DNA of 64,000 nucleotides from a virus (IMGVR_UViG_3300009164_000071:1290-65289), one strand, 5' to 3'; shown: positions 18,669 to 64,000, numbered from the stretch's first letter. A program made the numbers and translations. The notes: generated by a model from the letters alone, not told the origin.

Positions 18669-19764
18669 AGCATATTTTATAAATGGGGGCGCTGGCCGTG
18701 TACTTAGCTCAATTCCGGCTTTTGAAAAATTAGCAGAAACTGACAATGATTTCCTCGTTATCTGCGAGGGAGGCAGCGATCTACTACGTGGGCATCCTAT
18801 ATTAGACAAAAGGTCATTTGATCATTGGCACAAGGGGTTATTTAATGATCATTTAAAAAATCGTGATTTATACACTCCGGAGCCGTATCGTGTTTGGGAA
18901 TATTTTAATCAAAAATGTAGTATATCCCAAGCATTTGACATTGCAATTAATAATCAAGGAGTGAGAGAGTTGCCCCCTCCATCTCTACACCTAAGCAAAA
19001 TGGAAATTTCAGAAGCCTATAAGATAGTGCAGGAAATTAAGGCCAAATCAGGATTTGATAAGATGTTAGTTATACAACCATTCGGGCGAGGAGTACAAAA
19101 CAACGGAGGGCTTATTGTTGATCCAGGTTCTCGTAGTCTAGCACAACAAGATTTAATTGACATTATTAATGCTCTTAAAAAAGAATATGCTATTATAATT
19201 ATGACTGAATTTGGTATTCCGTTGGGTGAGGACGATTCTGTTAAATTTAAAATACCACAACCTAGAATTCCTAATTTAAGAATATGGGCGGCAGTTATTG
19301 AATTAGCAGATCATTTCTTAGGTTGCGATAGTGTAGGTCAGCATATTGCTAAATCTTTAGAAAAAACCGCCACTGTTATAACAGGCTCAACATTTCCTAT
19401 AAATATCAGTTATCCTACTGATCCTAATTTTGATATTATTGATGTAGGATTTGGACTAAGAACATACAGCCCTATACGAATTAGCATGGATGATTCTGTT
19501 GAAAGAAGCAACGAAAAATGCATGGAATTAACCGACGAACACCGATCACAAATTTTAAAATCTGTGCGTAAACGATTAGGAAAATCTGTTAAATCTAAAT
19601 TACAGATTATGAATATTGATCCAAGCAAGACTGCCGAAGCTGAAAAAAAATCTCAAATTGAAAAACCAGATTTTCCTATGAGTGCTGTGGCAAAAATTTT
19701 ATCAGATAATAAATCCACTGACGACTTGTCCGGACAACCAACAAATATTTTTGGTACTAATTAG
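18655..19764 (+). CDS. GT-B fold glycosyltransferase, GT9/heptosyltransferase-like
   Basis: N-terminal GGAGR.LSSIP, VIQPFG, and ADHFLGCDSVGQHIA matching the GT9 F.G.DSG..H.A signature; overlaps the carbamoyltransferase. Confidence 0.72.
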   Translation: MPRSKAYFINGGAGRVLSSIPAFEKLAETDNDFLVICEGGSDLLRGHPILDKRSFDHWHKGLFNDHLKNRDLYTPEPYRVWEYFNQKCSISQAFDIAINNQGVRELPPPSLHLSKMEISEAYKIVQEIKAKSGFDKMLVIQPFGRGVQNNGGLIVDPGSRSLAQQDLIDIINALKKEYAIIIMTEFGIPLGEDDSVKFKIPQPRIPNLRIWAAVIELADHFLGCDSVGQHIAKSLEKTATVITGSTFPINISYPTDPNFDIIDVGFGLRTYSPIRISMDDSVERSNEKCMELTDEHRSQILKSVRKRLGKSVKSKLQIMNIDPSKTAEAEKKSQIEKPDFPMSAVAKILSDNKSTDDLSGQPTNIFGTN

Positions 19765-20443
19765 ACCACTGTTGAGATCTGCGTATAAGGACTTCGTTAG
19801 AAAATACTGTAGCGTTTGGAGATACGTAAGTTGATTGTACAGTAATGTAAGTAGCAAAGATTCCGGACCCTTGGGCATTTGTCACGTTAGAATTTAATGC
19901 AAATTCTAAAGATCCTACTATCTTTGGAGGTTGGAAACACATAAATGTAATTGGAATAGCAAGATTATATACGCTAGTTGATCTATTCAGCACAGTAAAA
20001 TCAACTTCGGCAAAACTTAATGCATCACGCTCGCCGTCGAATCCAGGAGTTGACGTTCGGCCAACCTGAGTAAATCCGTCAGTTTGTAAGTAGGCTAAAT
20101 TATTTGCTCTGGCAATTTGACCAGACATTTCAAAATCAAACGGAAGTCCTCTATTTTGTACAATTTGGTTAGTACCTGTAGTTCCTACTACCGGAAATTT
20201 TGTTGCCGGCGACGTGCTAATAGAAAAATCTAACCAAGACGACCGATTGGGCGAAGCAGGGACATAACTCGAAGCTGTTGTCAATCCTATTGTTGAAGTT
20301 GATAGATAATGATTCCCTGTTTGAAACTCAAATGGTGCCCCGTTATTTGAAACAAGATACGTTCCGGAATTATTAAATCTAGAACTTCCAGAAGGTTGTG
20401 TTCCGTCTATGGAAAATATTATTTCAGCCGGGGTATAAGCCAT
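19757..20443 (-). CDS. Hypothetical Ser/Thr-rich protein, last gene of fibre array
   Basis: 228-aa ORF converging on the GT9-like gene. Confidence 0.7.
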   Translation of the reverse strand: MAYTPAEIIFSIDGTQPSGSSRFNNSGTYLVSNNGAPFEFQTGNHYLSTSTIGLTTASSYVPASPNRSSWLDFSISTSPATKFPVVGTTGTNQIVQNRGLPFDFEMSGQIARANNLAYLQTDGFTQVGRTSTPGFDGERDALSFAEVDFTVLNRSTSVYNLAIPITFMCFQPPKIVGSLEFALNSNVTNAQGSGIFATYITVQSTYVSPNATVFSNEVLIRRSQQWSN

Positions 20444-20454
20444 GGTAGTTAAAA

Positions 20455-22596
20455 TTAAGTTTGATTAACTGTTCCGATAATCTTAGCTTGAGCACTAGAA
20501 ATCAACTGTATAGCAACACTAGTATCTGTAGATGTTGAACTTGTTATTACAGTACTGTATGTACCACCGGCAAATGCTATACCAGGAGTAGCAGTAGCAC
20601 CAATAACGTTCAATGTGACACTTTGTGCTAATCTATTACCTAGATAATCAAACACATTAACTAGAATATTGCCGTTGATTGTTGTTCCAGTGTATACAAA
20701 CGTAGTTGTACTTGCTGAAATAAGTAATGTACTACCAACGTTAGTTGACAAGATGTCTATGTAATTTGAAGTCACACTGTTTGCCACAATTGTATTATCA
20801 AAGACTTGTACGGCCCAACGACCACTGTAATCTTGGAATAATCTAGAAGCGTTATATTGTTGAGTACTTTGGTATTGATATAATCCCGTGCCGGCATTTA
20901 GTACATAGATAACATCGTTGCTAAAAGTCGAACCAGAGTATATAATGGTCCAATTAGAGTTTAGCGGACAGAAGTACCTCGGTCCATAAGCGGCAGTGCT
21001 AAGAGAGCCAAGATAAGCGGCGGCGAATGTACTGTCATTTAACGACCAACTGTAAATTTGGAACATGCTTCCGCGGCCGCCTGGTAAATTAAATGTATTA
21101 GCTATTGAGACAAGTCCAGTACCGTTGGTATTATATACACCCAAATGTAAACGTTTAACACCGTTGGCATCAACACTGTACCAAACACGATTAACAGTCT
21201 GTCTACGGAAATTACTGTCAGTATAGACGCTATTACCAGTATTATCGTGGCCAGCATTAACATAAATCTGTCGCTGTGAACTTGTAGACATACTAGACAG
21301 GTCGTACTTGATCAATGCAGTAGTTGAACCGCTTAATAAGTTTAATTCCATTCTAAAAATAGAAATAGTTTGACTTAATGTACTATTTGTAAAAATATCA
21401 GAACCGTTAAAACTCATCATGTAGAATCTATAACCAGTACTACTGTCTAAGTCGGGATTACTTGGAATGAGTACTCCACTTAGCCCTTTCTTAAATGTTT
21501 GAACTACAGTTGTGGTACTGTTAGCGGCATTGAATAGTCGCAAACTTAACCTAGCTGACAACGCAGTTGATGTTGTGTCGGCGCCTTGAATGCCACCCAC
21601 CTGAGAATTATGTAGGAAGTAATATCTATACTGATTTCTATTGACTAAGAATGTACGTACTCCATAATCAACACTGCCAAATGGTGCGTTATACTGTAAG
21701 TATGCACCATTATTAAGTTGAGTAGTTGCAGTATTAATTACCATGCCACTAGGATTCCACGCTATTATATTTGAACTACAGGTACCACCAAAGAATAAAT
21801 TGTCTGGTACTTGAATGGTAGAATAACGACCATAAACACAGCAACCACTATGAACCCAAGTACAATTAATGCACATGTAGCAATTACAGTTAACATTACA
21901 GCTACCGGTGACACCATTGCTGCCACCAGGTGCCCCTTGATAAGTAGTACATGTATCACCAAATGTTGATTCGTTTACTGGACCACTGTAGCAATAACAG
22001 GCCAAGCAACACCAAGCTGTACATTGTGCTTGAGTCAATGAGCTATACGGAGCAAAACAAGTAAAGGATCCCGCAGGACTTTCTACCACAAGATAATTAG
22101 TGATTGCAGAATTTACAACAGTATAATTAGTACCGGCTTGTGGAACATAACATATTTGGGCGGTAGCAGTGAAGGCAGCGCAGGTACTACCCGGTAAAAC
22201 ACAACCTTGTAGGCATGCTGTATTACTGCTGGTGTTTATGTTAAAACAAACCGCTGGGGTATTTCCAAGATTTTTAAAAGACGTGTTGTAATTAGAATCT
22301 AGTGCCGTGCCGTAGCTTTGGAAACAACCAGCCGCATACTCTCCACTGAATCGACTGCCTGTTAGGTCAAAAGAATTGGCTATATAACCGGGTTCAAATG
22401 TACATGCGGCAACAATAGGCGAAATTTGTAGGCCAGCATCAGTACAGGCCGGTGATCCCTGATAGTTATTAATCATTTCTAAATTATTTGAACCATTATA
22501 GAACTGACCATTGACTACATAATTTTGGCCGGCATAGCCATATTGCACCAAAGTCTGTGTTGGAGGTGGTAAGTATCTCTGATAAAATTTTGCCAT
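20455..22596 (-). CDS. Putative appendage protein with Cys-rich insert; distant paralog of the three ~600-aa proteins
   Basis: About 24 Cys, nearly all in the N-terminal 40%; C-terminal PSN...FY...F, PR...PLN and YTGT.I motifs shared with 43444-49002. Confidence 0.75.
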   Translation of the reverse strand: MAKFYQRYLPPPTQTLVQYGYAGQNYVVNGQFYNGSNNLEMINNYQGSPACTDAGLQISPIVAACTFEPGYIANSFDLTGSRFSGEYAAGCFQSYGTALDSNYNTSFKNLGNTPAVCFNINTSSNTACLQGCVLPGSTCAAFTATAQICYVPQAGTNYTVVNSAITNYLVVESPAGSFTCFAPYSSLTQAQCTAWCCLACYCYSGPVNESTFGDTCTTYQGAPGGSNGVTGSCNVNCNCYMCINCTWVHSGCCVYGRYSTIQVPDNLFFGGTCSSNIIAWNPSGMVINTATTQLNNGAYLQYNAPFGSVDYGVRTFLVNRNQYRYYFLHNSQVGGIQGADTTSTALSARLSLRLFNAANSTTTVVQTFKKGLSGVLIPSNPDLDSSTGYRFYMMSFNGSDIFTNSTLSQTISIFRMELNLLSGSTTALIKYDLSSMSTSSQRQIYVNAGHDNTGNSVYTDSNFRRQTVNRVWYSVDANGVKRLHLGVYNTNGTGLVSIANTFNLPGGRGSMFQIYSWSLNDSTFAAAYLGSLSTAAYGPRYFCPLNSNWTIIYSGSTFSNDVIYVLNAGTGLYQYQSTQQYNASRLFQDYSGRWAVQVFDNTIVANSVTSNYIDILSTNVGSTLLISASTTTFVYTGTTINGNILVNVFDYLGNRLAQSVTLNVIGATATPGIAFAGGTYSTVITSSTSTDTSVAIQLISSAQAKIIGTVNQT

Positions 22597-22608
22597 GTTA
22601 ATTTCCTA

Positions 22609-22914
22609 TTATAAAGTTCCTGTATTATTCTCAGTTGAATTATTTTCAACGGGCTCTTCACTTGTTCCAGGTGCCGGCTCTATTGTGGGCGGCACATCAT
22701 AATCTGGAATTCTATCTTCCAAGTGATGATTAAAATTTACCTGTGTCCATTCATAAGCTTCGTCTCTACTAGCCCAAGGTTGTGGTATAGACCCTTGATT
22801 GGCATCTAGGGGCTTAAAAGGTTGGTGCAATACAACTTGACCAGTGTCTACCTCGTATACCTCTGCTACTCCATTTAAAAATCTAAATTCATATCTGTAC
22901 ATTCTAATCTCCAA
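22609..22914 (-). CDS. Small acidic hypothetical protein (possible fibre assembly factor)
   Basis: 101-aa ORF in the operon; function not recognised. Confidence 0.6.
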   Translation of the reverse strand: MEIRMYRYEFRFLNGVAEVYEVDTGQVVLHQPFKPLDANQGSIPQPWASRDEAYEWTQVNFNHHLEDRIPDYDVPPTIEPAPGTSEEPVENNSTENNTGTL

Positions 22915-22916
22915 AT

Positions 22917-23762
22917 TTATATATAATTAAATGACACATACATATCGGCAGCATACAATCCTGTATTAGTCACAATTACTGTGATATAATCGTTGCTAGA
23001 TGTTGTGGCAATTCCTGTGGAAGTTGTATAAGCATTAGTTCCTGTCCACGCCAAGCTAACAGCGGTATTATCATTAATGTTAATATTTATGCCTACAGCT
23101 TGAGTTCCTGCTGTTAGAACCCTAGCAGTTATTTGGTTAACTGATATAGGGTTAATTGGGTACCAACGAGTAGTATAACTGCTATATCCGACTGTCAAGC
23201 TGCCAGGAGTATACGATGTGGTCACCTTAGGTGTTTGACTTAGAGCTGAAATTGCACCAGTAGTTGTACTGATTGAGTAAATTTTGCCACCAACGTATAA
23301 ATCTCGGCCGATGCCGACACCGCCCTGTACAACCAAGGATCCTGTACTAGTTGATGTTGCGTTTGTGTTGTTCTGAATAATCAGCGGATTTGTTATAGTT
23401 CCACCAAAGAAATTCGCTGGTCCTGTAGGTCCTTCGGGGCCCGATGGCCCGCCATATACGGCAGCACCGGTAGGTCCGCTAACACCTGATGGTCCGCTAA
23501 CTCCGCTGGCACCGCTAGGTCCTTGTGGTCCTGTTCCGCTAGGTCCTTGTGGTCCTCTAGGACCACTAGTACCGCCACCTGCGCCAACAAGACCACCTGT
23601 GCTGTAAATTGAACCCGCTACATACAAATCTTTTGCAATGCCAACTCCGCCTGCAACCTGTAGTGACGCTCCAGCAACCGACGATGTTGACGTTGCTGTA
23701 GACGGTACTACAACAGTACCTGTGTTATCTTGTAAGAACGATAAATTACTGGCTATTGTCAT
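22917..23762 (-). CDS. Short collagen-containing fibre protein
   Basis: GPS/GPQ triplets, two GxLxVxGGVGI repeats, C-terminal domain related to that of 49004..53323. Confidence 0.8.
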   Translation of the reverse strand: MTIASNLSFLQDNTGTVVVPSTATSTSSVAGASLQVAGGVGIAKDLYVAGSIYSTGGLVGAGGGTSGPRGPQGPSGTGPQGPSGASGVSGPSGVSGPTGAAVYGGPSGPEGPTGPANFFGGTITNPLIIQNNTNATSTSTGSLVVQGGVGIGRDLYVGGKIYSISTTTGAISALSQTPKVTTSYTPGSLTVGYSSYTTRWYPINPISVNQITARVLTAGTQAVGINININDNTAVSLAWTGTNAYTTSTGIATTSSNDYITVIVTNTGLYAADMYVSFNYI

Positions 23763-23772: not shown

Positions 23773-26700
23773 TTAGGCCTGCGCTTCATTCCAACGTAAA
23801 ACCAAGTTAGTTTGTAGTGGAGGTCCTGATGTTAAGTAAACATTGACAAACAAAGTGTCCGGGCCGTTGGGGAATGTACCACGGCCGCCTAGTGGCGTAT
23901 TTGATAATTCTTTCAATTGCCCTAATTCTAGCTGGTCTTTGTTAGCCGGTGAAGAGATGAACGAGAAAATTGTTTCACCTGGAACAGCCCACTGGTTTCT
24001 ATAGAATGTTAAACTTGTTGCAGTGTTAATTTGACTCAATGCAGGCTGTGTTAAGAATATAACTCCGTCACCAACTGATTGTATCAGAGTATTTCCCGCA
24101 AGACCAGTGCCGCCAGTGATTGGATTAACAGTAGTTGTCACAGCATCTCCAACTTGCATACTAGCAGTTGACGCTACAAAAACTTGATTACTATTAGCGG
24201 GAGTTGCATTAAAAATACTAACTGTTGTCACATAAGTTGCCGAACCGTCAAATTGCACAGCACCAGCTGGCGCAACTTGTGTAAAACTTGGTTGACCCGA
24301 GCCTAATGGATTACCGTTTTGTACAGTACCTTGTAGACCGTACCACGTGACCCTGTCTGCGTTCAGCGGGTAGTTTGCAGGATTTAAAACTCCTTCAATA
24401 ACCACCGCCTGTTGTCCCCCTGATCCGCCACCAACGGTGTTTTCAATAGATGTCAACAATAACTGCGCTCGATTAATAAGATCACGCACACCTAAGTCAC
24501 CAATAATAGCGTTAGAAACACTAGGTGCTAGACGAATGGCAAACGCAGTCTTTTTAACCACCGATGCAATAACGTTAGGCGCTTGATAGCTAAAAATGTA
24601 TCCACGGTCTTCATCGAAACCGCCGTCTTGTAAGAAAGCTGACCCCCAATGGCTAATTGTTGGACTAGCCGTTATACCCACAGGAATAAGCCCTGTGCCT
24701 GCGGCGTGGGAGGCAGCCGGTCCAGCTGTGTATGCTCTCAATGCTCCGCAAACATATTGTCTTAGAGGAATACTTCGAGTTAAATTCAACAAAGAACCTA
24801 AACCAGTTGCTGTACTCTTACCGTTATATCCAATCAATTCGTTGTCTACGTAAACTGTACCCGAAGTTGCATAATAGGTTAGGTCGTTGACAATCACTGA
24901 CGTATCTGAGGGACCCATGCTTAAGAATATTGATGTACGCTGTCCTTCATTCATGACCTCATAGCGCACAGGTTGATTTCCTGAACGCATATAGGCTTCT
25001 GCCCTATTGTTTGAATTTTTTAGTCTATGTATAACTATGTAATTACCATCTGGACCACGTAGCATCCATTCAATAAATCCAGCACCGTACCAAGTCCATT
25101 GCATACCTATCATCTGCATTCTACTAGGATTTAACAGGTATCCGCTAGGATTGAATACGCTATTACTTCCGTCGCATCGGTCAGTGTTCCATTGAAATTG
25201 CGGAACAAGAATATCTATGGTCTTGGCAGCTTTGACAACGGTCGTAGATGTAGTACCCCGCCATGGTGGAACAACATACAACCATGTTGAACTAGATACT
25301 GCTGAGACTACGTGTGACATACCTTTGATAACAATTCGATCCCCTGCAACTAATTGGTAATCAAAACGAGTATTATTGCCTGTGACCAGTGTACTACCTA
25401 CAGTGACGTTTAATGTTCCTGCAATTTGTGCAGTACTTTGACGCAGACCGCAGGCCATTAGGGTGCCGTCAAACTGCATGAAAATGCCGTTTTGATCGTC
25501 AAAAGTTCCTGCACGTACTGTTGCTCCATACCAGCTAACATGCGACATAAATGACGGAACAGTTAATGCCGGAGCAGTACTAGACAATACATTAGTTGCT
25601 GTGACTATAATTGTGCGTTCATCCAGAATTCGTGCCACAGGATACGTTCCTGTAAATCCATTGCTAGTGCTCATACCCGTTAAACTGATCGTTGCTCCTG
25701 CTTGTAGACCATGTTCTATTTCGTCTGTGGTTATGTATATTTCCGCACCAATGATTGTATCTGTTGCTGTCACAGCTCGCAGGTCATAGTTGGGAGCAAA
25801 AAGTGCGGCAGTGTTATAGTTAATACTTTTACCTGATTGATAACGAACATATTTCTTACTCATACGTGCTGAGTGAGCTCCGTATTGCGGACCTCCAGTG
25901 CCTAAACTAACCCCGCCGTCAACAGGTCTGTGTACAAAGAATGAATCACAACGACTGTAGATAATTCCCACAGGAGTGCCTGATATAGTTCCCCACTGTC
26001 GTGCCTGAAATGTCAATGTAGTCAGTGTTGGTACTGTGCTAATAAAGAATGGTCCATTGACAAAACCGTGGTTATTAACACCGTTGTCACTGCTGATAGC
26101 AGATATAAACGCATCTCCCGGTATGTATCCGTGATTGGTAGCAAATGTCAATGTGATTGTGGCAAAACTTGTGGGGCCGCCGCCTGCAACTGAGAAAGTA
26201 GGAGTTTGTCCTGTTCCTGAATAAAATCCACCTTTACGTAAAATACTGTAGGGCGTACTAATTTGCTGATTAGAAGTGGTTCCTACTTGAGCCTTGGCAT
26301 AATAAGTAAACCTATTTGGATTAATAACTGCATTTACAATTAATTCTCCCTGAGCTCGGGAAAATCCCGAAGTTGTTGGGTCTAGGTTAGTGACCACAAT
26401 AGGCTGGCCTGCTAGAAGATAGTGCGGAACAACTGTGGTCACAGTGATTAAACTTGCAATATCAACACCTTGAGCATTACTAGCATCTGTGGTTATTGAC
26501 TGTATAGCAAAGTCACTTCCTGGAATTTCAAAAATACCCGGTTGTGCCCTAACCATACTCAAGGTCTGCCACTTAGTTGGTTGTAGACCGTATTCAAAGT
26601 CAGCATCAAGCATGGATACTGGAGCGGCCATACGCATACGTTCGAAGCCGTCTGTGCCTGCAGGCCATGGTCGTATAATAGTCTCTGTTCTTTCTACAAA

Positions 26701-32776: not shown

Positions 32777-32780
32777 AATA

Positions 32781-47163: not shown

Positions 47164-47202
47164 TTTATTCTCCTAAATTTCCTGTTAAATTTTTCATTAG
47201 AT
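47150..47202. repeat. 53-bp perfect direct repeat, copy 2 (gene junction)
   Basis: Identical to 45314-45366. Confidence 0.95.
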
Positions 47203-55907: not shown

Positions 55908-56297
55908 TTAAGTTAGTTCAACCCAATTGGTTGTTTCTTCATTCCACACATAAGGCTTACCGTCAGTGGGCATGGCAACAGGAGGATTCCATAAACAAGT
56001 TTCCTCGTCTAGTATCCATGATGTGTAGGGTTGGGGAGGAATAAATGCATCACGTTGCAAATCATAGGTATACCCAATTCCTGCATAATTTTTACGTAGC
56101 GCAACACCGCCATCTGGCTGGCCGTCTGGTCCAAGATGAACACCGCCTTGTGTGTTGTAGCTAGTCTTAATCCATGTACCACCAATTAGATTTCGACAAA
56201 ACATTGCTCCTACTTCTTCAGTAGGTTCTTCGTTATTGTGTACTACAATAACCCTTAGAACAATATTATTTTTATCAATTTCTGCGTAATGTGCCAT
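55908..56297 (-). CDS. Conserved phage protein, putative fibre assembly chaperone
   Basis: MAHYAEID..N.V.RVIV, W..TSYN, RKNYAGIG.TYD, DAFIPP.PY.SW; Trp-rich end. Chaperone role is inference. Confidence 0.65.
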   Translation of the reverse strand: MAHYAEIDKNNIVLRVIVVHNNEEPTEEVGAMFCRNLIGGTWIKTSYNTQGGVHLGPDGQPDGGVALRKNYAGIGYTYDLQRDAFIPPQPYTSWILDEETCLWNPPVAMPTDGKPYVWNEETTNWVELT

Positions 56298-56309: not shown

Positions 56310-56633
56310 TCATCTAAAATTATATATTGGCCCAGACATGTCTATCCAATTGGTGTTCTCACCGTCAAAAGTATATCTAAAGACAATATCAAGAGTAGGG
56401 TGATACCAGATATCACCGGGAGTTGCATTTTGTGGAGCAGTTGATGTTGTGGTAGTTCTAATACTACCGCCGACTACGGTGCCGCCTATATTAACATCGC
56501 CAACGATGCCAACGCCACCTGAAACTAGGAGTGCACCTGTGTCAGTGCTGGTTGAAACGGTATCGCCTAGAACCGTAGCTGTGGTTGAGACCACAAGGCC
56601 ATGTTTGACCCTAAAATCATTATTAACTGCCAT
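56310..56633 (-). CDS. Minimal fibre connector (107 aa)
   Basis: ATG at 56633 gives MAVNNDFRVKHGL; one GAL.V.GG repeat; GDIWY module. Confidence 0.75.
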   Translation of the reverse strand: MAVNNDFRVKHGLVVSTTATVLGDTVSTSTDTGALLVSGGVGIVGDVNIGGTVVGGSIRTTTTSTAPQNATPGDIWYHPTLDIVFRYTFDGENTNWIDMSGPIYNFR

Positions 56634-56692: not shown

Positions 56693-56728
56693 AAAACAAA
56701 TGGAGCCTTTCGAGCTCCATTTAGTTTT
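56693..56728 (-). terminator. Rho-independent terminator
   Basis: Minus strand AAATGGAGC-TCGAAAG-GCTCCATTT-GTTTTT after the stop of 56751..59861. Confidence 0.75.
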
Positions 56729-56750: not shown

Positions 56751-59700
56751 TTATGCAGTTATACCTAGTCGGACAACTTTAATTGTCATAGCAGTTGCAC
56801 TATTTGGTGTAAACGTTAGTGTCACAATACCAGCTCCAATAGAAGCATCAAATGTTCCAAGTGATCCGTTGTTTGTATTAATTCCGTACTCACTTAGGTA
56901 TACGCTGGTACCTATCCAGAACATGCTTATTTCTGTGACATAAACACTGCCGCTGTCTATAATCTGTATTAGATACTTAGATGTTCTATACTCTGACGAA
57001 TTGTAGGTATCTAGAGACACTTGTCCCGAACCGCTGATTGCCGCGCTTGTATAGCTAGCTAATACAATGTCATTGCTGTAAATTGCTGGAACTACTTGAG
57101 AACTTACAACAGTGCCAATAGTTAATGCGTTGGTAAATGTTCCTCGTCCAGTGACTTTGATGTCATTAAACTCAGCGACTCCCGTAGAGTCTATTTTATT
57201 AGCGTAGATTGTACCTGTAGACCGGATGTCAACAAATGTACCAGTACTACCACTAATTGTATCAATGCCGGTTAAACTTGCGCCTTTTACGTAGATAGTT
57301 CCTTCAACATACAAGTCAGCATTAATAGTTGTGTCAGAATCAACAAACAGAGTTCCACCAATATTAACGGCGCCGCCAATACCAGCACCGCCTACAACTG
57401 TTAAAGCACCACTTGTTGTGCCAGTACTGGAAGTTGCACTATTGGAAACAATATTACCAGCCACTGTCCAGTTGCCAACACCACTTAGACTTGCTACTTC
57501 AGTTTCGGCACCATACCATTTAAACTTAAACGAGTCGCCGTATTCCGGAATGCTGGACCACATTGTGGCAGCATTAATACCCATAGCGTAATCAACTGTA
57601 GCACCAGTTAGTGAAGGATACAATACAAGTTTAGTACCTTCACTGCGGGTAGTAAATGCCGGAGCACCTGTACCTACAGCGGCCCAATCAATTCTATTGC
57701 TTGTGGCGCCGTTTAAATATACTTGGCTTTGTCCGCTAACTGCGCTACCTGCCGCAGTTGAAATCAATGTGCCACCTATTGTAGCAGTTGTGCCAACATA
57801 CAAGTCTTTGGCAATTTTAGTTCCGCCGGATACTTTTAATGCACCGTCGTCAACGCCACCGTTTGTAGCGGCAGTACCCGAAACATTAACTTTTGTTGTT
57901 GCTGTAAAAACTTCAGTTGTAATGTTTTTAGCATATAGTTGACTACCAGCAACATCGAATGTAAAATCTGCATTGTCAGTTAGTCTAAGGCTGCTATTAG
58001 CAAATGTGACACGGCCGGCGACTAAGCTTCTTAATCTTGCAGTATTAGCTTCAATGTATGTGTTGCTACTTAATTCCACAGTTCCTGTATTACTAAATTT
58101 AAATGTATCAGCTCCAACAGTTAGTGTTATACCGGTAGCATCAGCTGTGACATAATTTGTATTGCTATAATTTAATTTAACACTAGTGTCACTCCATAGA
58201 CCAATACTTTTCCCTGAGGCAGATGCAACTGCATTGTCGGAACCGTAAGTTCCGGAGTTGTTGCCGCCAGCACGGACATCAACACCGTCAACATGGAAAA
58301 TAAGATTGTCGTAATTATACAACAAGTGGTTTGTTAGTGTACTTGTACTAGTATTGAGTTGATACGGAATGTAGTACTTTTCACCACCACGTATGTTGGG
58401 TGCATTATTAGCAGACGCTAATACCCACTCAAGTGTGCCGTTGCTAGCATTATAAGCTAAAACTTGGTCTTGTGCTGTAGGGGCTGCAATGAACGCTGTA
58501 GTGTTTACCGCTGATTGATATGCAATCCTAAGATTGGCGCCGCCTGCTAAGTTTGTAGAAGTATTTGCAAAAGCAATACGGCCTTCAACCTGACTTAATG
58601 ATGGGTTCCAGGCTAAACTACTATCAACTAACTTGTGATCTGCATCAGAAAATACAATACGGTTTTCGTGTAAAGTAGTGACTTTAACATCTGCACCTTG
58701 TACCGTAGTTGACGCCGTGACATTAGTTGCGGAGAATGTTGTGCCATCCCAAGTTAAACTTGCGCTGTCAACTAAATTATGACCAGCATCAGAAAATACT
58801 AAACGTGTATTAGATAACGATCTAACATGCATTGTTTGAGCACTAACATCAACGCCTGCATATAAACTTAGACCAATACCAGCTCCGCCTGCTACCTGTA
58901 GAGCACCTGAAGTTGTATTTGATGCATCTGTCGTACTAGTTAATTCAGATGAAAGAGATTTTGTTCCTGCATAGGCAGAGCCTGAAAAAGATGTTGTCCC
59001 TTCAGCACCGTTTGCATAGAATGAAAATACACCCGTATCTTGCGTTAACACAAGTGCCGCATTTTTATCAGCACCGCCATTGTAATAGTGGAAACGTAAT
59101 CCAATGTCCTTGCCGTCTGTACTTGACCATGTTGCACCTACTCCGCCAGGAGGGGTGTGCAGTTCAAGAATGTTATCAGTGTAAACTGTGTTTGTAGAAT
59201 ATACGTATGTTGCAGGACCGTTAAATATCACATCGTTATTAAAGACTGCTGGTCCATTAACTGTTAAATTTTGACCAATACCAACACCGCCAGCTACATA
59301 TAATGCGTTGGTAGCAGTAGTAGAAGTGCTAGATACCGAACTGTTAACAATTAAGTTATCGCCAACGTATACTCCACCTGTGACTTTTAATGCTCCTGAG
59401 CCACCACCTGCGCTGGCAGCGGTAGTATTGTTTGTTATCTGTGTAATTCCGGCTACGTCTAACGTAGAACCAAAATCTACAGCACCGCTAACTGATAACT
59501 TATTTGATCCTGTGACAATAATTGCACCAGTAAATGTATTCAGTGCGCCTTCAAAATTACTGTTCTGACCTACATTCAGTGTACTTAATAATTTTGTAGC
59601 ACCAGTTGCTGTAAATTTTCCACCAACGGTTGCATCTAAACTAATGTAGGCATTATTACTTGCTATTACATCACCTAACAGATTAGTTTTTCCGTAGATT

Positions 59701-59861
59701 GTTGCAGTTGATCCAACTAATATGTCTTTAGCAAAACCCGCCCCACCGTTGACCTGTAGTGTACCAACGTTGTTGGTGCTAGTGGTTATCGGGCTTGAAG
59801 TCCCTTGTACATTAAGACCTGATTTTACAATAAAGTCTTGAGTGATTGATGTTAGTGCCAT
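56751..59861 (-). CDS. Long fibre protein (1036 aa)
   Basis: Starts MALTSITQDFIVKSGL; GAL.V.GG repeats; C-terminal YRTSKYLIQ domain. Confidence 0.85.
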   Translation of the reverse strand: MALTSITQDFIVKSGLNVQGTSSPITTSTNNVGTLQVNGGAGFAKDILVGSTATIYGKTNLLGDVIASNNAYISLDATVGGKFTATGATKLLSTLNVGQNSNFEGALNTFTGAIIVTGSNKLSVSGAVDFGSTLDVAGITQITNNTTAASAGGGSGALKVTGGVYVGDNLIVNSSVSSTSTTATNALYVAGGVGIGQNLTVNGPAVFNNDVIFNGPATYVYSTNTVYTDNILELHTPPGGVGATWSSTDGKDIGLRFHYYNGGADKNAALVLTQDTGVFSFYANGAEGTTSFSGSAYAGTKSLSSELTSTTDASNTTSGALQVAGGAGIGLSLYAGVDVSAQTMHVRSLSNTRLVFSDAGHNLVDSASLTWDGTTFSATNVTASTTVQGADVKVTTLHENRIVFSDADHKLVDSSLAWNPSLSQVEGRIAFANTSTNLAGGANLRIAYQSAVNTTAFIAAPTAQDQVLAYNASNGTLEWVLASANNAPNIRGGEKYYIPYQLNTSTSTLTNHLLYNYDNLIFHVDGVDVRAGGNNSGTYGSDNAVASASGKSIGLWSDTSVKLNYSNTNYVTADATGITLTVGADTFKFSNTGTVELSSNTYIEANTARLRSLVAGRVTFANSSLRLTDNADFTFDVAGSQLYAKNITTEVFTATTKVNVSGTAATNGGVDDGALKVSGGTKIAKDLYVGTTATIGGTLISTAAGSAVSGQSQVYLNGATSNRIDWAAVGTGAPAFTTRSEGTKLVLYPSLTGATVDYAMGINAATMWSSIPEYGDSFKFKWYGAETEVASLSGVGNWTVAGNIVSNSATSSTGTTSGALTVVGGAGIGGAVNIGGTLFVDSDTTINADLYVEGTIYVKGASLTGIDTISGSTGTFVDIRSTGTIYANKIDSTGVAEFNDIKVTGRGTFTNALTIGTVVSSQVVPAIYSNDIVLASYTSAAISGSGQVSLDTYNSSEYRTSKYLIQIIDSGSVYVTEISMFWIGTSVYLSEYGINTNNGSLGTFDASIGAGIVTLTFTPNSATAMTIKVVRLGITA

Positions 59862-59876: not shown

Positions 59877-60734
59877 TTACGTCGCCATTCCGGTGCGCAT
59901 CACGCTTATTACCTTATTTGAGGCCATGTACGGAGTAAAATATAGTCTAACTGTATTACTTTGTACATCGGCCGCAAACACTCCTAATTCCCCATTTGTT
60001 GTTAAAACCCCGTATTCTGTTGCAAATACTGTTCCTATGTTATCTACTAACAACAAGATTTCAATAACTTGAAACTTTGCTCCTGGGCCAGTATCATCAT
60101 CAATTTGTATAAGATACTTTGCCGCTCTAAATTCTAATACCGAATACGTGTCAACAACAACTGTCGCTGTGGTATTTATGCTGACCAGCGTAGAATCGAA
60201 GACTGTATCTGCTATTTTAATGCTTTCTGCATTAAGTCGACCACCAATTCCTACTCCACCTGTGACTACTAATGCTCCAGTTATAGTTGATACTGAAGTA
60301 GTAGTATTTGATATATATAGGGCTTGATTGGTAGTTGCACCACGCACTGTCAGTGATTGCAAGGTTGAAGTATTGTTTATTGTTAAAACACCAGTGCTGG
60401 TATTAGCTACAATACTAATGTCTACTCCAGGAAGTACATAAGTTCCTAGACTAGAAGTAGTTAAAATTGACCTACCTTGTTGCGTTATTGAGCCACCGAC
60501 ATTTAAATCTCTTCCAATTCCAACGCCTCCGGTGACTACTACAGCGCCTGAAGTAGTTGATGTTGAATTAGTTGAAGTAGATACAAATAATTGTTGTGTT
60601 GCTGTTATAACAGCACTGATCACCCCGCCACTTATTGCAGGTCTTACCCACGCATATCCATTCCAATTGTATGTCACTGATCCAATGACAACTGTTTGGT
60701 TAGGCGTTGGGTTTGTCGGAAATAATGTTGCCAT
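59877..60734 (-). CDS. Fibre connector protein (285 aa)
   Basis: MATLFPTNP..W module; C-terminal FRAAKYLIQ domain. Confidence 0.8.
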   Translation of the reverse strand: MATLFPTNPTPNQTVVIGSVTYNWNGYAWVRPAISGGVISAVITATQQLFVSTSTNSTSTTSGAVVVTGGVGIGRDLNVGGSITQQGRSILTTSSLGTYVLPGVDISIVANTSTGVLTINNTSTLQSLTVRGATTNQALYISNTTTSVSTITGALVVTGGVGIGGRLNAESIKIADTVFDSTLVSINTTATVVVDTYSVLEFRAAKYLIQIDDDTGPGAKFQVIEILLLVDNIGTVFATEYGVLTTNGELGVFAADVQSNTVRLYFTPYMASNKVISVMRTGMAT

Positions 60735-60746
60735 GTTCTTTTCTCT

Positions 60747-61664
60747 TTATGCTAAGGCAGTAAATTGTATCCATACAGTACTAGTACCGTCTTGTACATA
60801 TTGTAGGGCCGCACCTATACTAGGAATAATCCAAACTTCTCCTACCTTAGGGTCAGTTGGTTCGACACCAGGAGGGTCTCCAAAATATACATTAGGGCTA
60901 TACAATAATCCGCCTAAATTACTATTACCGTCTGCACTATGTACACTTCCTCGAGTTCCTATACCACCGTAGACAGTCAAGGCGCCGGTAGTAGTTGAAG
61001 TAGATACAGTACTACTTGTTATTGCCATGACAGGCACCGATAAAGTTCCTGTTGGATTATTATAATTAAACGAATAACTGCTACTAGCAGTGGTATATTC
61101 CCCAATTTGTTTAGTCATCATGGGATAATATATGCTAGACGACGTTAAACTAACAAATAAATTATCTGAATTAGTTGCGGTCGTAGCACGACTGGCTGAG
61201 AATGATCCCACTGACAGCCACGCAGGAGCGGTTCCGGTAGATACTAGAACATACCCGCTAGTTGAAATTCCTAGAAAAGTTGTTCTTCCTGCCGCAGTCT
61301 GATAAGGTATACTTCCTTGGGCGCCGCCTGTTATATTAGTTGATGTGCTAACAGTTCCGGTAATAGTATTTGTTGCAGTCATTGCACCTGTTAGATACAA
61401 ATCTCCTCTAATAGATACCACAGCCGATCCTGTTGTAGCAATAACAATATTCTGTGATGCAACTTGATTTGATATTGTTCCACTGGTAAACAGTAAATTA
61501 CCTAAACTTGAACTGTAAGTAGCGGTTCTAGTACTGTCAACAATGAGAGTATAACCAGTAGCAGTGGTAGCAGTTGGAGGGAAACTAGGTTGAGCAGTGC
61601 TCAACTTGATAAAAGTTCCGCTACCGTATGGTCTAAGTTGTGATCCGCTTAATAAACTAGGCAT
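60747..61664 (-). CDS. Fibre protein (305 aa)
   Basis: GG..GSIPYQ and GALTV.GG motifs; C-terminal P..GEVW...WIQ module. Confidence 0.8.
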   Translation of the reverse strand: MPSLLSGSQLRPYGSGTFIKLSTAQPSFPPTATTATGYTLIVDSTRTATYSSSLGNLLFTSGTISNQVASQNIVIATTGSAVVSIRGDLYLTGAMTATNTITGTVSTSTNITGGAQGSIPYQTAAGRTTFLGISTSGYVLVSTGTAPAWLSVGSFSASRATTATNSDNLFVSLTSSSIYYPMMTKQIGEYTTASSSYSFNYNNPTGTLSVPVMAITSSTVSTSTTTGALTVYGGIGTRGSVHSADGNSNLGGLLYSPNVYFGDPPGVEPTDPKVGEVWIIPSIGAALQYVQDGTSTVWIQFTALA

Positions 61665-61676
61665 GTTTAATCTCTA

Positions 61677-62060
61677 TTATTCGTTGGCTGTTTCTAGAAC
61701 ACTTAGTGTTAGTTGCATCGAACCATTACTAGTCCCGTAGCAGATGATACTATCTGATGTTTCTACAATCATTTTACCAAAAATTGGGTTAGCCGCATCG
61801 TTGGCAGGGATTTGAAATTCCTTTACTAAGTATGTGCCTACTCCTCCGGGCTGTGCGCCATTTCCTTGAGGATCGGCTAGTATTGCTCTATTACGATAGT
61901 GCATAAACGTCACAGTTTGTGTGGCTGTGGAGATATTACTAACCTGCGCCATCAATATAACCGCTGTCACTCCACTTGGTGCTGTATATACTTTTGTAGT
62001 TGTCACAGTTGATACTGCAGATGTTTTTGTTTTAAATGTGTTTAATGGAATTAATGCCAT
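61677..62060 (-). CDS. Small beta-sandwich adaptor-like protein (127 aa)
   Basis: MALIPLNTFKT...VYTAP.G...QVSN...IP.ND...D.I...LSVLET; aligns with 33203..33562. Confidence 0.75.
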   Translation of the reverse strand: MALIPLNTFKTKTSAVSTVTTTKVYTAPSGVTAVILMAQVSNISTATQTVTFMHYRNRAILADPQGNGAQPGGVGTYLVKEFQIPANDAANPIFGKMIVETSDSIICYGTSNGSMQLTLSVLETANE

Positions 62061-62071
62061 AATTTTTCCTT

Positions 62072-64000
62072 TTATCCTCCGATAGCCAATATGAACGGTG
62101 TTAAGTAATTTAACAAACTCTTTTGGAATGTTCTTCCGCTAAGTAATCCAGTGGCTTGGCTGATTACAAGTCCTGTACCAATACGGAAGTCTCCGTTTTG
62201 GTCAGTTGATGTAAAGAATACTTTACCATTATCTAATTGCAGTGTTTCTTTACTTTGAATCGGATCTCTACGACCTACTTGTGGTAATGCTCCGTAGTTA
62301 GTTCCAGCACCCACGTACTCGAATACATAACTAGATGCACTAATATAACTGCGTTGATAGAAATTTATAGTAGCACCATCTGGGAACAATGAAGTATCTG
62401 TCACATTTTCTCCTAGCGACACAATATGATGTGTGCCGTTGCGTGACCAATAGCTCAACCCTGACATGACCATATTATAATTTCCGCCAGTTTCTATATC
62501 ATAGATTAATCTTTGTAAAGTTAATTTAACATCTCGACGACATTTAGCATTATCATAAGCACCTATAGTTGGGCCAAAAACACTGTTAACATACGCTGAT
62601 ATTTCTTCTGCAAGGAAGTCAATGTTAGCTGTTATAAGGTCAACGGCACTGCCAGCACCTGGAACAAGATTTCCTGTTTTCTTTCTGTTATTAGTAGAAA
62701 CTACGGCATTGGCAGAATTAATATTGGCCGCCCCAATGATATTTTTTAAATCTGTGAATCTATTTCCTATAAATTCAATTGCTTGGCTTCCTCCAACTAT
62801 TTGTTTTTGTATAACTTGAGTAGATGTTGTTTGATACAAGCCTGTTATTGTTATATTTGATATAACTGATTCAACTAATGTATTTAAATGACTCAATGAT
62901 GTTATGTGTGCTGAAATTTGACTAATGCCGGTAGAAACATTTGCTGAGCTTAAAATATTGGTTCCCACGGGTTTAGGATTATTAGCAATTGAACTGCTTA
63001 AAACTGTATAATAAGCATTTCCACAGAAATACAAATTAAAATATGTATCATCTGCTGGATCACCACCGCCACTGGTTATTGATTTACTTAATGTTATACT
63101 TTGATAACTAACGTCTGTGACTACAGTTCCTGTGTCAGAATATAATAAACCGTTTGTTCCTGTAAAGCTACCAAACTGATCTCGAATGTGCAAAGTATTT
63201 CCTACAGCTATACCATTGATATTGATACCGGATATAGTAATAGTACCTGTTGTTAATGTGCCTGTATTGACAATTGCATTAAGGAACCCTGGCAATACTT
63301 GAGGATTAACGTAATCTTTAGGAGGTTCAACTTCCATGACCAGACTAATATGCGGTCTATCTACAACATCTGGAACGAATATCTCAACTTGGGCATTAGA
63401 TGGCCAATATCCTGTTGGATAAAATTGATTTAGTCCGTCTGGTCCTGGACTATCTGGGTATGCTTTGTTTGGAGGATTATAAACTGTTCCACTGAATGCT
63501 CGGTATCCGTGACCCTTGGCAATTAATGCAACATCACCAAAGTTAGCATTACTGTTGACAATAGATGCAATACCACCGTTGTCAACCTGAACACCAACTG
63601 AACAGAAAATTGTAAACACAGAAACTAGCTGTGCATACCCGTTGTTGGTCACTTTTATACCTATGCCGCCTTGATTAACTTGTGTATACGCATCAAAAAC
63701 AAAACTTTGTATTGGGCTTCTGTCACTGACTACAGAACCGTCAACTAAACATCCTCCCATTGCTCCAACAGGGTCTAATTTTCGTGAAGCATAATCATCT
63801 GGGACATCCTCATCTTGAATTGGTAGTACACCGGCATTGCCAAAATATAATGTAGCATTATCAGCAATACCTGTAGTAGTAGTATTCAACGTTAATGTAT
63901 AATTGTCTCCACCTAATGGTGTGACTGATAGTATCTTTGGTGCTAGTCGCACATCGTCAGCTAGTGCTCCAGAAGCTAGACTCAATGAACTTCCTTGATA
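62072..64000 (-). CDS. Large virion structural protein, C-terminal part (partial, starts beyond right edge)
   Basis: Frame stays open upstream of the TTG at 63985 to the window edge; DAYTQ.NQGG.G...NNGYAQLVS, KCRRD, FEYVGAG motifs; ends FILAIGG. Confidence 0.8.
   Translation of the reverse strand, partial: YQGSSLSLASGALADDVRLAPKILSVTPLGGDNYTLTLNTTTTGIADNATLYFGNAGVLPIQDEDVPDDYASRKLDPVGAMGGCLVDGSVVSDRSPIQSFVFDAYTQVNQGGIGIKVTNNGYAQLVSVFTIFCSVGVQVDNGGIASIVNSNANFGDVALIAKGHGYRAFSGTVYNPPNKAYPDSPGPDGLNQFYPTGYWPSNAQVEIFVPDVVDRPHISLVMEVEPPKDYVNPQVLPGFLNAIVNTGTLTTGTITISGININGIAVGNTLHIRDQFGSFTGTNGLLYSDTGTVVTDVSYQSITLSKSITSGGGDPADDTYFNLYFCGNAYYTVLSSSIANNPKPVGTNILSSANVSTGISQISAHITSLSHLNTLVESVISNITITGLYQTTSTQVIQKQIVGGSQAIEFIGNRFTDLKNIIGAANINSANAVVSTNNRKKTGNLVPGAGSAVDLITANIDFLAEEISAYVNSVFGPTIGAYDNAKCRRDVKLTLQRLIYDIETGGNYNMVMSGLSYWSRNGTHHIVSLGENVTDTSLFPDGATINFYQRSYISASSYVFEYVGAGTNYGALPQVGRRDPIQSKETLQLDNGKVFFTSTDQNGDFRIGTGLVISQATGLLSGRTFQKSLLNYLTPFILAIGG

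What the first reader, a model, noticed from the sequence alone, without database searches (positions are those of the whole stretch)
19757..64000. Colinear 'plug-and-socket' docking grammar predicting a daisy-chained, branched virion appendage
Seen: reading the ~23 genes in transcription order, terminal modules recur in fixed C-to-N pairings of four classes (A-D, detailed separately). The implied chain is 62072 -C- 61677 - 60747 -B- 59877 -A- 56751 -A- 56310 -B- 53393 -A- 49004. Protein 49004 carries two sockets (D to the three ~600-aa proteins and LamG giant; B to 33566). Protein 33566 also carries two (C to 33203 and the two NGG-IG proteins; B to 27025). Then 27025 -C- 23773 - 22917 -D- 20455. 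Established: branched receptor-binding networks docked through T4 gp10-like domains exist in phages CBA120 and G7C, and PKS docking domains show gene-order/assembly colinearity. Inference: this is a reusable connector code that builds a tree-shaped fibre with several different lectin-like tips.
Basis: partly seen in the sequence, partly recalled or inferred. Interest (0 to 1): 0.92.

Follow-up and report, generated by a model that had tools for sequence, protein, structure and literature searches.

The report
Segmented phage fibre with connector modules
A phage gene block encodes many fibre proteins whose ends carry matching connector modules in gene order, which suggests multi-piece tail fibres joined end to end as in phage T4, but with reusable joints.

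Summary
The window is a fragment of an uncultivated T4-like myovirus related to cyanophages. Class A: a C-terminal domain homologous to the T4 gp9 'socket' domain (Z 14.0; own HMM hits gp9, E 2e-8), always C-terminal, usually followed by a gene starting 'DFxVKxGL'. Class B: a hairpin motif at residues 1-5 (BN), preceded by a gene carrying the related motif BC. In 64 gene runs from other viral contigs, 95 of 113 transitions are BC to BN and none is BC to non-BN (0 of 10,000 shuffles reach this). Class C: a hydrophobic C-terminal tail, then a ~120-aa jelly-roll protein, then a matching next N-terminus, co-varying in four subtypes. Class D is not supported. The 'class A socket' of g22917 is only the generic shaft repeat. 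BC is usually internal, not terminal. One complex prediction gave weak support (0.41; best control 0.00). A gene-order-colinear, multi-segment fibre is the best reading. The single branched tree is unproven. I rate it a new variant of a known kind (T4 gp9-gp34-37; branched receptor-binding complexes).

The parts
62072..64000 (-). g62072: C-terminal 637+ aa of a giant fibre protein, cut by the contig end. It ends in the hydrophobic tail ..TPFILAIGG (about nt 62075-62110), class C1 tail.
   Evidence: Homologues of 1800-2400 aa with the same tail occur in 12 or more contigs. PHROG tail-fibre and baseplate-wedge families match its C-terminus.
61677..62060 (-). g61677: 127-aa small jelly-roll protein (CN, subtype C1), between the giant's tail and g60747.
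   Evidence: CN HMM E 2.7e-43. AF2 pLDDT 89.7, 8 strands. Generic jelly-roll matches with best Z 9.2. Conserved position in relatives.
60747..61664 (-). g60747: N-terminus 'MPSLLSGSQLR', one shaft repeat, and BC at the C-terminus (aa 265-305, nt 60750-60872).
   Evidence: The N-terminal type co-varies with CN subtype C1.
59877..60734 (-). g59877: BN (aa 3-45, nt 60600-60728), 2 shaft repeats, and the gp9-like C-terminal domain AC (aa 170-285, nt 59880-60227).
56751..59861 (-). g56751: AN N-terminus (MALTSITQDFIVKSGL), 1036-aa shaft, and AC (aa 926-1036, nt 56754-57086).
56697..56723 (-). Terminator-like hairpin with a T-run, in the 117-nt gap between g56751 and g56310.
   Evidence: 11 pairs, the top-ranked site.
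56310..56633 (-). g56310: 107-aa adapter made only of AN, one shaft repeat and BC (aa 51-104, nt 56322-56483).
55908..56297 (-). g55908: 129-aa protein (phrog_7759) lying inside the B junction. Its homologues sit directly upstream of BN genes in other contigs.
53393..55897 (-). g53393: BN (aa 1-45, nt 55763-55897), a collagen-like run (aa 156-254), 6 shaft repeats, and AC (aa 723-833, nt 53399-53731).
49004..53323 (-). g49004: AN N-terminus ([12 protein letters not shown]), 15 shaft repeats, collagen-like runs, an internal BC (aa 1255-1308, nt 49400-49561), and a 131-aa C-terminal domain of unknown kind.
43444..49002 (-). g47197, g45361, g43444: three full-length paralogues of about 600 aa (39-45% identity), with no known family.
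34369..43428 (-). g34369: 3019-aa protein with 11 Laminin_G_3 (ConA-like lectin/glucanase) stretches.
   Evidence: (E 3.4e-153).
33566..34357 (-). g33566: BN (nt 34223-34357), 3 shaft repeats, BC (aa 192-245, nt 33623-33784), and the tail ..KMIVFSLFFGG (class C2).
33203..33562 (-). g33203: 119-aa CN protein, subtype C2 (MSAPNIVNIST..).
27545..33206 (-). g32781 (141 aa) and g27545 (1743 aa; Laminin_G_3 and Gly_rich_2). Both start 'MR.R.NGG.IG', the N-terminal type that follows C2 CN proteins in relatives.
27025..27507 (-). g27025: BN (nt 27373-27507) and the tail ..INLAMTIALGS.
23773..26994 (-). g23773: phrog_5838 virion structural protein, 48% identical to S-CAM1 SXBG_00214. In all four distinct members seen, it is preceded by a gene ending in a '..A(L/F)G' hydrophobic tail.
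19757..23762 (-). g22917 (shaft repeats, collagen-like run), g22609, g20455 (C-terminal half like the 600-aa paralogues) and g19757. No junction module was verified here.

Best explanation
The block encodes a multi-protein fibre apparatus of a T4-like myovirus. Most proteins are trimeric shaft segments built from collagen-like runs and a ~32-aa repeat. Their ends carry a small set of junction modules, and genes are ordered so that the distal module of one product is followed by the gene whose N-terminus fits it.

Junction A is a gp9-like socket domain at the C-terminus. It receives the N-terminal 'DFxVKxGL' end of the next segment coaxially, as T4 gp9 receives gp34.

Junction B pairs a BC hairpin motif near the distal end of one protein with the related BN hairpin at residue 1 of the next.

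Junction C is a hydrophobic C-terminal tail. It is taken up either by a small jelly-roll protein, which in turn fits the next N-terminus, or directly by the g23773 family.

Shown here: the modules, their strict terminal positions, the gene-order rule, the co-variation, and the gp9 homology.

Inferred: that these rules reflect physical docking, and in which geometry (serial or branched).
For: AC and gp9:
- The AF2 model of g59877 has AC residues 177-285 at pLDDT of about 90.
- The best structural match is the T4 gp9 C-terminal domain: Z 14.0, rmsd 2.0, 108 residues aligned, model 175-285 against gp9 169-283.
- An HMM built from 33 unique AC sequences hits T4 gp9 residues 177-279 at E 2.1e-8. 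It does not hit gp10.
- The T4 review calls gp9 trimers the 'socket proteins'. It states that the long tail fibres attach coaxially to the gp9 C-terminal domain through the gp34 N-terminus (passages).

A junction:
- AC is C-terminal in 40 of 40 hits.
- Of 32 dereplicated AC genes with a downstream gene, 22 are followed by a strict AN motif and 5 more by AN-like variants. The motif occurs at 31 of 1025 N-termini overall.

B junction:
- BN is N-terminal in 157 of 157 hits, and in 130 of the best 150 of 5711 cluster representatives in 1.84 billion proteins (my count of the listing).
- In 64 dereplicated runs, 95 of 113 transitions are BC-bearing to BN-bearing and 0 are BC to non-BN.
- Shuffled order gives mean 53.8, sd 4.3, maximum 70, with 0 of 10,000 shuffles reaching 95.
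- The first gene of a run is BC-only in 40 of 51 runs. The last gene is BN-only in 44 of 48.

C junction:
- Tail, CN protein and next N-terminus co-vary in four subtypes, while the bodies of the upstream proteins differ (110 to 2400 aa).
- All 4 distinct g23773-family genes follow a '..A(L/F)G' tail. One of them is in the cultured phage S-CAM1.

Co-variation. Where the g56751 homologue ends '..NSLDTVFG' instead of AC, the gene two places downstream starts 'MAxLLSGTRIYG' instead of AN. This held in 9 of 9 cases.

Complex prediction (g56310 x3 with g53393 residues 1-100 x3), verdict weak support:
- Score 0.41, best of 3 controls 0.00.
- The mark was reached by 58 of 80 solved complexes and 2 of 110 mismatched pairs.
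- At 0.60 or under, it was reached by only 7 of those 80 solved complexes and by both mismatches that passed.
- The runs agree in at least 71% of contacts, and the partner's pLDDT is at least 75.
Against: - No physical evidence exists. The complex score is in the weak band, no interface was given, and both chains carry the same shaft repeat, so the model may simply have bundled like repeats.
- The contigs are related and were found through BN or g59877. The counts are therefore not independent events, and no tree-aware test was run.
- BC is mostly internal, followed by 16-1000 further residues. It is not a simple end plug.
- BN and BC are not 1:1 in some contigs. L020/L071 carry several BN genes in a row, and 6 of 113 transitions are BN-only to BN.
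- AC without a following AN gene exists: S-SM2 SSM2_107, plus 5 of 32 in the contigs.
- In T4 itself, gene 9 is not next to gene 34.
- AC-like folds also cap tailspikes as distal domains (6e1r, 6c72; Z 10-11).
- The AN HMM does not score the T4 gp34 N-terminus (E 190).
- Pfam T4_gp9_10_C is below its cut-off (20.6 against 25 bits).
Confidence: 0.6

Rival explanations
1. Parallel fibres. Each BN- or AN-bearing protein attaches on its own to a common baseplate or adaptor site. AC and BC are merely distal, trimerisation or registration domains. Gene order reflects duplication history, not assembly order.
For: - Several BN genes in a row occur in L020/L071.
- AC-like folds cap tailspikes as distal domains.
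- S-SM2 SSM2_107 ends in AC with no AN gene after it.
- BN and BC are versions of one hairpin motif (hhalign probability 60%, E 8.6e-5), as expected for a generic structural element.
Against: - It does not predict that the first gene of a run lacks BN (40 of 51), that the last lacks BC (44 of 48), or that BC to non-BN never occurs (0 of 113).
- It does not predict adapters made only of two junction modules, such as g56310 (107 aa) and the 110-142 aa BN+BC+tail proteins.
- It does not predict the switch of the downstream N-terminal type when the upstream C-terminal type changes.
- The closest homologue of AC is gp9, the fibre socket, not a receptor-binding tip.
Confidence: 0.2
2. Cassette linkage without contact between fibre segments. 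The conserved gene ends are boundaries of recombination units. The small proteins (g61677, g33203, g55908) are assembly chaperones that co-vary with the neighbouring fibre ends, as gp38 does with gp37 and Tfa with Stf.
For: - Small genes directly downstream of fibre genes are the classical chaperone position.
- The tail, the CN protein and the next N-terminus move together as a block while the fibre bodies differ.
- g55908 homologues sit directly upstream of BN genes in at least 6 contigs.
Against: - CN is a well-predicted 8-strand jelly roll resembling trimeric or capsomeric structural proteins. It matches no chaperone family in Pfam or PHROGs.
- Conservation is at the protein level across 30-60% identical copies.
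- A and B junctions mostly have no small gene between them.
Confidence: 0.15
3. Chance or composition. The apparent modules are low-complexity Ser/Thr/Gly-rich fibre sequence that looks alike.
For: Class D fails.
Against: - The module HMMs give E-values from 1e-13 to 1e-43 in the window.
- The modules keep strict terminal positions.
- AC has a confident globular fold.
- Shuffle controls are never reached.
Confidence: 0.03

Closest known systems
T4 long tail fibre and its socket: gp9, gp34, gp35, gp36, gp37
   Same: - Trimeric fibre segments are joined end to end.
- Genes 34-37 lie in assembly order.
[quoted passage not shown]
- AC is homologous to that gp9 domain.
- A three-part junction with a small middle protein seen in relatives resembles gp34-gp35-gp36.
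   Different: - Here the gp9-like socket is fused to the C-terminus of fibre segments themselves and is used three times in a row.
- In T4 it is a separate baseplate protein, encoded far from gene 34.
- The shafts are not homologous to gp34-37 (no HMM match).
- Junction types B and C have no T4 counterpart that I could find.
Branched receptor-binding complexes with T4 gp10-like domains (Ackermannviridae CBA120 TSP1-4; G7C)
   Same: Several receptor-binding proteins dock on one another through conserved modules related to T4 baseplate proteins. For PMC11414711 and PMC8825819 I saw only the search listing and the start of each abstract. G7C is recalled.
   Different: - There the docking domains sit in the N-terminal part of an anchor tailspike and are gp10-like.
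- Here the domain is C-terminal and matches gp9, not gp10.
- The cargo here is long fibres with LamG-type domains, not beta-helix depolymerases.
Anchor-branch systems of Klebsiella phages (branching domain plus conserved docking peptide)
   Same: A short conserved N-terminal peptide of a second receptor-binding protein docks on a domain of the first. For PMC6872550 and PMC13352976 I saw only the search listing and the start of each abstract.
   Different: Those are two-component podophage systems. Here there are at least three junction types, with serial re-use over up to about 10 genes.
Fibre-tip and chaperone/adhesin cassettes (T4 gp37-gp38; Stf-Tfa)
   Same: The C-terminal end of a fibre gene and the small gene after it co-vary as a unit (recalled). 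Gene 38 follows gene 37 in T4.
   Different: The CN proteins have a jelly-roll fold and also co-vary with the N-terminus of the gene after them.
Docking domains of modular polyketide synthases
   Same: An analogy only: matched C- and N-terminal elements order successive polypeptides colinearly with gene order (recalled).
   Different: Unrelated proteins and folds. Nothing was tested here.

Membership tests
T4 gp9/gp10-like C-terminal domain (Pfam PF23618) | Sequence match to the family model at its gathering score | tested here: not met
   g59877 scores 20.6 bits, E 5.8e-4, against a cut-off of 25. g56751 and g53393 show no hit at E 0.01.
T4 gp9/gp10-like C-terminal domain (Pfam PF23618) | Sequence homology to T4 gp9 itself | tested here: met
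   The HMM of 33 unique AC sequences hits gp9 residues 177-279, E 2.1e-8, in a set of 10 T4 proteins. gp10 is not hit. hhalign to the gp9 C-terminus gives E 2.9e-4 and to the gp10 C-terminus 0.17.
T4 gp9/gp10-like C-terminal domain (Pfam PF23618) | Eight-stranded beta-sandwich fold of the gp9 C-terminal domain | tested here: met
   1qex_A: Z 14.0, rmsd 2.0, 108 residues aligned, 21% identity. Foldseek E 1.1e-6.
T4 gp9/gp10-like C-terminal domain (Pfam PF23618) | A trimer that receives the N-terminus of a fibre coaxially | not testable with these tools
T4-type segmented long tail fibre | Successive fibre genes in the order of assembly, with matched ends | tested here: met
   This holds as a genomic pattern. 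Assembly itself is not shown.
T4-type segmented long tail fibre | Homology to gp34, gp35, gp36 or gp37 | tested here: not met
   No module HMM hits them at E below 0.04. The AN HMM against the gp34 N-terminus gives E 190. The gp34 N-terminus does fit a relaxed motif that 1 of 995 other N-termini fit, chosen after the fact.
Branched tailspike complex of CBA120/G7C type | gp10-like docking domains in the N-terminal part of an anchor protein | tested here: not met
   AC is C-terminal in 40 of 40 hits and matches gp9, not gp10.
Tail fibre assembly chaperone (for g61677, g33203, g55908) | Match to a known chaperone family | tested here: not met
   phrog_1276 and phrog_7759 carry no function. No Pfam hit reaches its cut-off.
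Tail fibre assembly chaperone (for g61677, g33203, g55908) | Small gene next to a fibre gene, co-varying with the fibre end | tested here: met
T4 fibritin foldon (for BN/BC) | Profile similarity to the C-terminal foldon of T4 wac | tested here: inconclusive
   hhalign BN against the last 45 aa of wac: probability 9.4%, E 0.0035. BC: probability 0.5%.

The most novel reading that the evidence does not exclude
Aquatic T4-like myoviruses use a combinatorial connector code of at least five orthogonal junction types. These are the gp9-like socket with an N-terminal peptide, the BC/BN hairpin pair, the hydrophobic tail with a jelly-roll adaptor, the 'NSLDxxF' end with a hinge protein, and Mtd_N-type ends. 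Tiny adapter proteins convert one junction type into another. With this code the phages build very long, multi-segment and possibly branched fibres carrying several lectin-like tips. Gene order spells out the assembly order, so the architecture of an uncultivated virion appendage could be read from sequence.
Probability: 0.3. Interest if true: 0.85.

Novelty: new variant of a known kind. Interest (0 to 1): 0.62.

Why it matters
Tail fibres decide host range, and the fibre genes of marine and freshwater T4-like phages are a large block of unannotated giant ORFs. If the junction rules hold physically, three things follow.

- The block can be read as an assembly plan.
- Many 'hypothetical' small proteins can be annotated as adapters.
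- A set of natural, mutually orthogonal connectors becomes available for studying, in laboratory phage-host pairs, how fibres are put together.

The BN module alone marks 5711 protein clusters in 1.84 billion proteins, so the rule would apply widely. The gp9 link also suggests how such chains evolved: the baseplate socket domain was fused onto the end of a fibre.

Tried and rejected
- Foldon idea. The BN/BC hairpins looked like the T4 fibritin foldon, but profile comparison with the T4 wac C-terminus gave 9.4% and 0.5% probability. Not supported.
- gp10 rather than gp9. The AC HMM and hhalign do not match gp10.
- Class D. phmmer with the C-terminal 135 aa of g49004 and the C-terminal 125 aa of g22917 finds only self hits, plus one low-complexity hit. 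g47197, g20455, g19757 and g22609 have no homologue in the 101 fetched loci, so adjacency could not be tested.
- Solved structures by sequence. Profiles of g59877, BN and the g56310 adapter find nothing meaningful.
- megablast of 24 kb against phage records: no match. tblastn with g33566: no match. tblastn with g59877: 4 records only.
- AN HMM against the N-termini of T4 gp34-38: no score.
- CN fold search: only generic jelly rolls, with best Z 9.2 and no row standing out. No function follows from it.
- The multi-stretch internal BN hits in the large library are mostly other hairpin repeats. I scanned 7 of the 20: 3 are Kelch propellers (P0004, P0014, P0049). One passes the DUF2793 cut-off (P0006) and 2 have DUF2793 below it (P0001, P0012). 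P0005 has nothing above any cut-off.
- T4 late-promoter motif TATAAATA: 2 matches against 7.7 expected.
- The Sf14 paper turned out irrelevant, because its gp34 is a capsid protein.
- Earlier findings of this scan were not open.
- The first BN alignment was too diverse for a locus scan, so a narrower one was used.

Full report
**What the region is**

The window is nearly all of a 65,289-base IMG/VR viral contig, rated 19% complete. Its left part carries a large terminase, tail tube, tail sheath, gp13-like and gp15-like genes.

From 19757 to the contig end, 23 ORFs lie on the minus strand. g23773 is a phrog_5838 'virion structural protein' (E 8.4e-239). It is 48% identical to SXBG_00214 of Synechococcus phage S-CAM1, a T4-like cyanomyovirus. 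Related contigs carry a gp23-type major capsid protein just upstream of the homologous block.

So this is the fibre region of an uncultivated relative of T4-like phages. Eight of the proteins are shaft proteins, built from a ~32-aa repeat (35 copies in all) and collagen-like runs. g34369 has 11 Laminin_G_3 stretches. g27545 has Laminin_G_3 and a glycine-rich domain.

**Checking the observation in the window**

Alignments of the ends, all-against-all BLAST and HMMs confirm three module pairs.

- BN ('MxFPxxPxNGQ..Y.Y...W.R') starts g59877, g53393, g33566 and g27025.
- BC ('GDxWY...Y..DG...W') lies at or near the end of g60747, g56310, g49004 and g33566.
- AC, a ~110-aa domain, ends g59877, g56751 and g53393.
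- Each AC gene is followed by a gene starting '[DN]FxVKxGL' (AN).
- Hydrophobic tails end g62072, g33566 and g27025. They are followed by g61677, g33203 and g23773.

- The 'A socket' of g22917 is only the shaft repeat.
- BC of g49004 is 131 residues from the end.
- g55908 lies inside the g56310-g53393 junction, and four genes separate g49004 from g33566.
- Class D fails. The three ~600-aa proteins are plain paralogues. g20455 resembles them only in its C-terminal half. The C-termini of g49004 and g22917 are not detectably alike.

**Is it more than chance or inheritance?**

I fetched 101 loci from other viral contigs and three named phage records, then scanned called genes with iterated module HMMs.

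Positions of the modules:
- BN is at the N-terminus in 157 of 157 hits.
- BC is C-terminal in 22 hits, internal in 118 and N-terminal in 3.
- AC is C-terminal in 40 of 40 hits.

A junction:
- 33 AC genes remained after dereplication, and 32 of them have a downstream gene on the same strand.
- Of these, 22 are followed by a strict AN motif.
- Five more are followed by clear variants ('NFVVHNGL', 'KKFNANS').
- Five are followed by nothing of the kind.
- The strict motif occurs at 31 of 1025 complete N-termini.
- 22 of 27 dereplicated AN genes follow an AC gene directly.

B junction, in 64 dereplicated runs of B-module genes:
- 95 of 113 transitions go from a BC-bearing gene to a BN-bearing gene.
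- 12 go from BN-only to BC-only, which reads as a new chain starting.
- 6 go from BN-only to BN.
- None goes from BC to a gene without BN.
- Shuffling the order within runs gives a mean of 53.8 (sd 4.3, maximum 70), and 0 of 10,000 shuffles reach 95.
- Runs begin with a BC-only gene in 40 of 51 cases and end with a BN-only gene in 44 of 48.

These counts are inflated by relatedness and by the way the loci were found. No phylogeny-aware test was done.

**Co-variation in recombined contexts**

This is the stronger argument. The small CN proteins fall into four subtypes. Each subtype has its own upstream tail and its own downstream N-terminus:
- '..TPFILAIEGG', then 'MAxxPLNxF..', then 'MPxLLSGS..'
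- '..GKxIAMxxxFGG', then 'MAAPNIVN..', then 'MxRxxGG..'
- '..SPFLLMGA', then 'MxxxYKVLGQ..', then 'MxxKxAS..'
- '..RAxGFSLLx', then '..NIYVSSGN', then 'MGRMIKN..'

The bodies of the upstream proteins range from 110 to about 2400 aa.

All four distinct g23773-family genes follow a gene ending '..A(L/F)G(S/G/Y)'. Those upstream genes are a 160-aa BN protein, a 258-aa BN protein, a 380-aa protein in the cultured phage S-CAM1, and a 1368-aa AN protein.

In some contigs the g56751 homologue ends '..NSLDTVFG' instead of AC. There the next fibre gene starts 'MAxLLSGTRIYG' instead of AN, and a small 'FDEV' protein lies between them. This held in 9 of 9 cases.

Adapters made of nothing but two junction modules also exist: g56310 (AN + BC, 107 aa) and 110-142 aa BN + BC + tail proteins.

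**What the modules are**

AC:
- The AF2 model of g59877 gives AC at pLDDT of about 90.
- Its best structural match is the C-terminal domain of T4 gp9: Z 14.0, rmsd 2.0, 108 residues aligned. Foldseek gives E 1.1e-6.
- My AC HMM hits gp9 residues 177-279 at E 2.1e-8 and does not hit gp10.
- Pfam T4_gp9_10_C is just under its cut-off.
- The T4 review calls gp9 trimers the 'socket proteins'. It states that the long tail fibre attaches coaxially to the gp9 C-terminal domain through the N-terminus of gp34 (passages).
- The gp34 N-terminus, as read from the T4 record, fits a relaxed AN-like motif that only 1 of 995 other N-termini fit. That motif was chosen after the fact, and the AN HMM does not score gp34.
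- AC-like domains also cap tailspikes (Z 10-11), so the fold alone does not prove a socket role.

BN and BC are versions of one ~33-residue hairpin motif: hhalign probability 60%, E 8.6e-5, against controls of 0.2%. No solved relative was found. A foldon relationship is not supported.

CN is a confident 8-strand jelly roll (pLDDT 89.7) with only generic matches.

BN marks 5711 cluster representatives at E of 0.001 or better among 1.84 billion proteins. It starts at residues 1-5 in 130 of the best 150 (my count). I scanned 7 of the 20 internal, multi-stretch hits. Three are Kelch propellers, one passes the DUF2793 cut-off, two have DUF2793 below it, and one has nothing above any cut-off.

**The one complex test**

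I folded g56310 (3 copies) against g53393 residues 1-100 (3 copies). The verdict was weak support:
- Score 0.41, best of 3 controls 0.00.
- The mark was reached by 58 of 80 solved complexes and 2 of 110 mismatched pairs.
- At 0.60 or under, it was reached by only 7 of those 80 solved complexes and by both mismatches that passed.
- The runs agree in at least 71% of contacts, and the partner's pLDDT is at least 75.

No interface was given. Both chains carry the same shaft repeat, so this adds little.

**Verdict**

The best-supported reading is a segmented fibre system encoded colinearly with its assembly, using re-usable junctions. I put confidence in that at about 0.6.

Junction A is a duplicated and fused version of the T4 gp9-gp34 joint. 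Junctions B and C are, as far as my three literature searches go, not described. Those searches were not exhaustive, and I make no claim that they are absent from print.

Serial chaining fits the run grammar better than parallel attachment does.

The concept is known from the T4 long tail fibre and from branched receptor-binding complexes. This is therefore a new variant of a known kind, of moderate to high interest.

Noticed in passing
window 56697-56723 (- strand): A strong terminator-like hairpin with a T-run lies in the 117-nt gap between g56751 and g56310. The same junction has a gap of 120-127 nt in L002, L003, L038, L080 and L089, whereas most other junctions have gaps of 4-25 nt.
   Followed up: partly
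window 55908-56297 (- strand); L051, L084, L085, L093, L106-L109: g55908 (phrog_7759, 129 aa, no known function) has homologues that sit directly upstream of BN-starting genes in at least 6 other contigs. It may be an assembly factor or a junction part for BN fibres.
   Followed up: partly
L006, L013, L015, L018, L045, L055, L078, L085: A fifth junction type is absent from the window. A C-terminus '..NSLD(T/F)(V/I)F(G/N)' is followed by a protein of 71-77 aa (or larger) with a 'G.L.V.G.FDEV' motif. Then comes a fibre gene starting 'MA.L.SGTRIYG'. This held in 9 of 9 dereplicated cases.
   Followed up: partly
L111 (S-SM2 NC_015279) 7774-9438: SSM2_107 'tail fiber protein' of the cultured cyanophage S-SM2 ends in an AC (gp9-like) domain (E 8.5e-32). 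It lies between gp16 and gp17, and the gene after it has no AN start.
   Followed up: partly
L002 15929-18790; L003, L005: The last fibre gene of the core chain in some relatives starts with an Mtd_N domain (PF18454, E 1.8e-10). It follows a BN protein ending '..DWG(S/T)(L/F)', which is possibly yet another junction type.
   Followed up: no
window 28000-32000: GC rises to 0.48-0.49 and GC skew falls to about -0.25 inside g27545, against about 0.40 and about 0 elsewhere. This coincides with its glycine-rich repeats.
   Followed up: no
L005 2073-8384, residues 523-606: The 2104-aa homologue of g62072 gives a Pfam 'Phycobilisome protein' hit of 29.9 bits (cut-off 22.2), although no single stretch passes on its own.
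   Followed up: no
window 16827-18668 (+ strand); L001: A Nol-like carbamoyltransferase gene lies next to the fibre block, as it does in S-CAM1. There sugar-modifying genes lie just upstream of the gene pair SXBG_00215/SXBG_00214.
   Followed up: no
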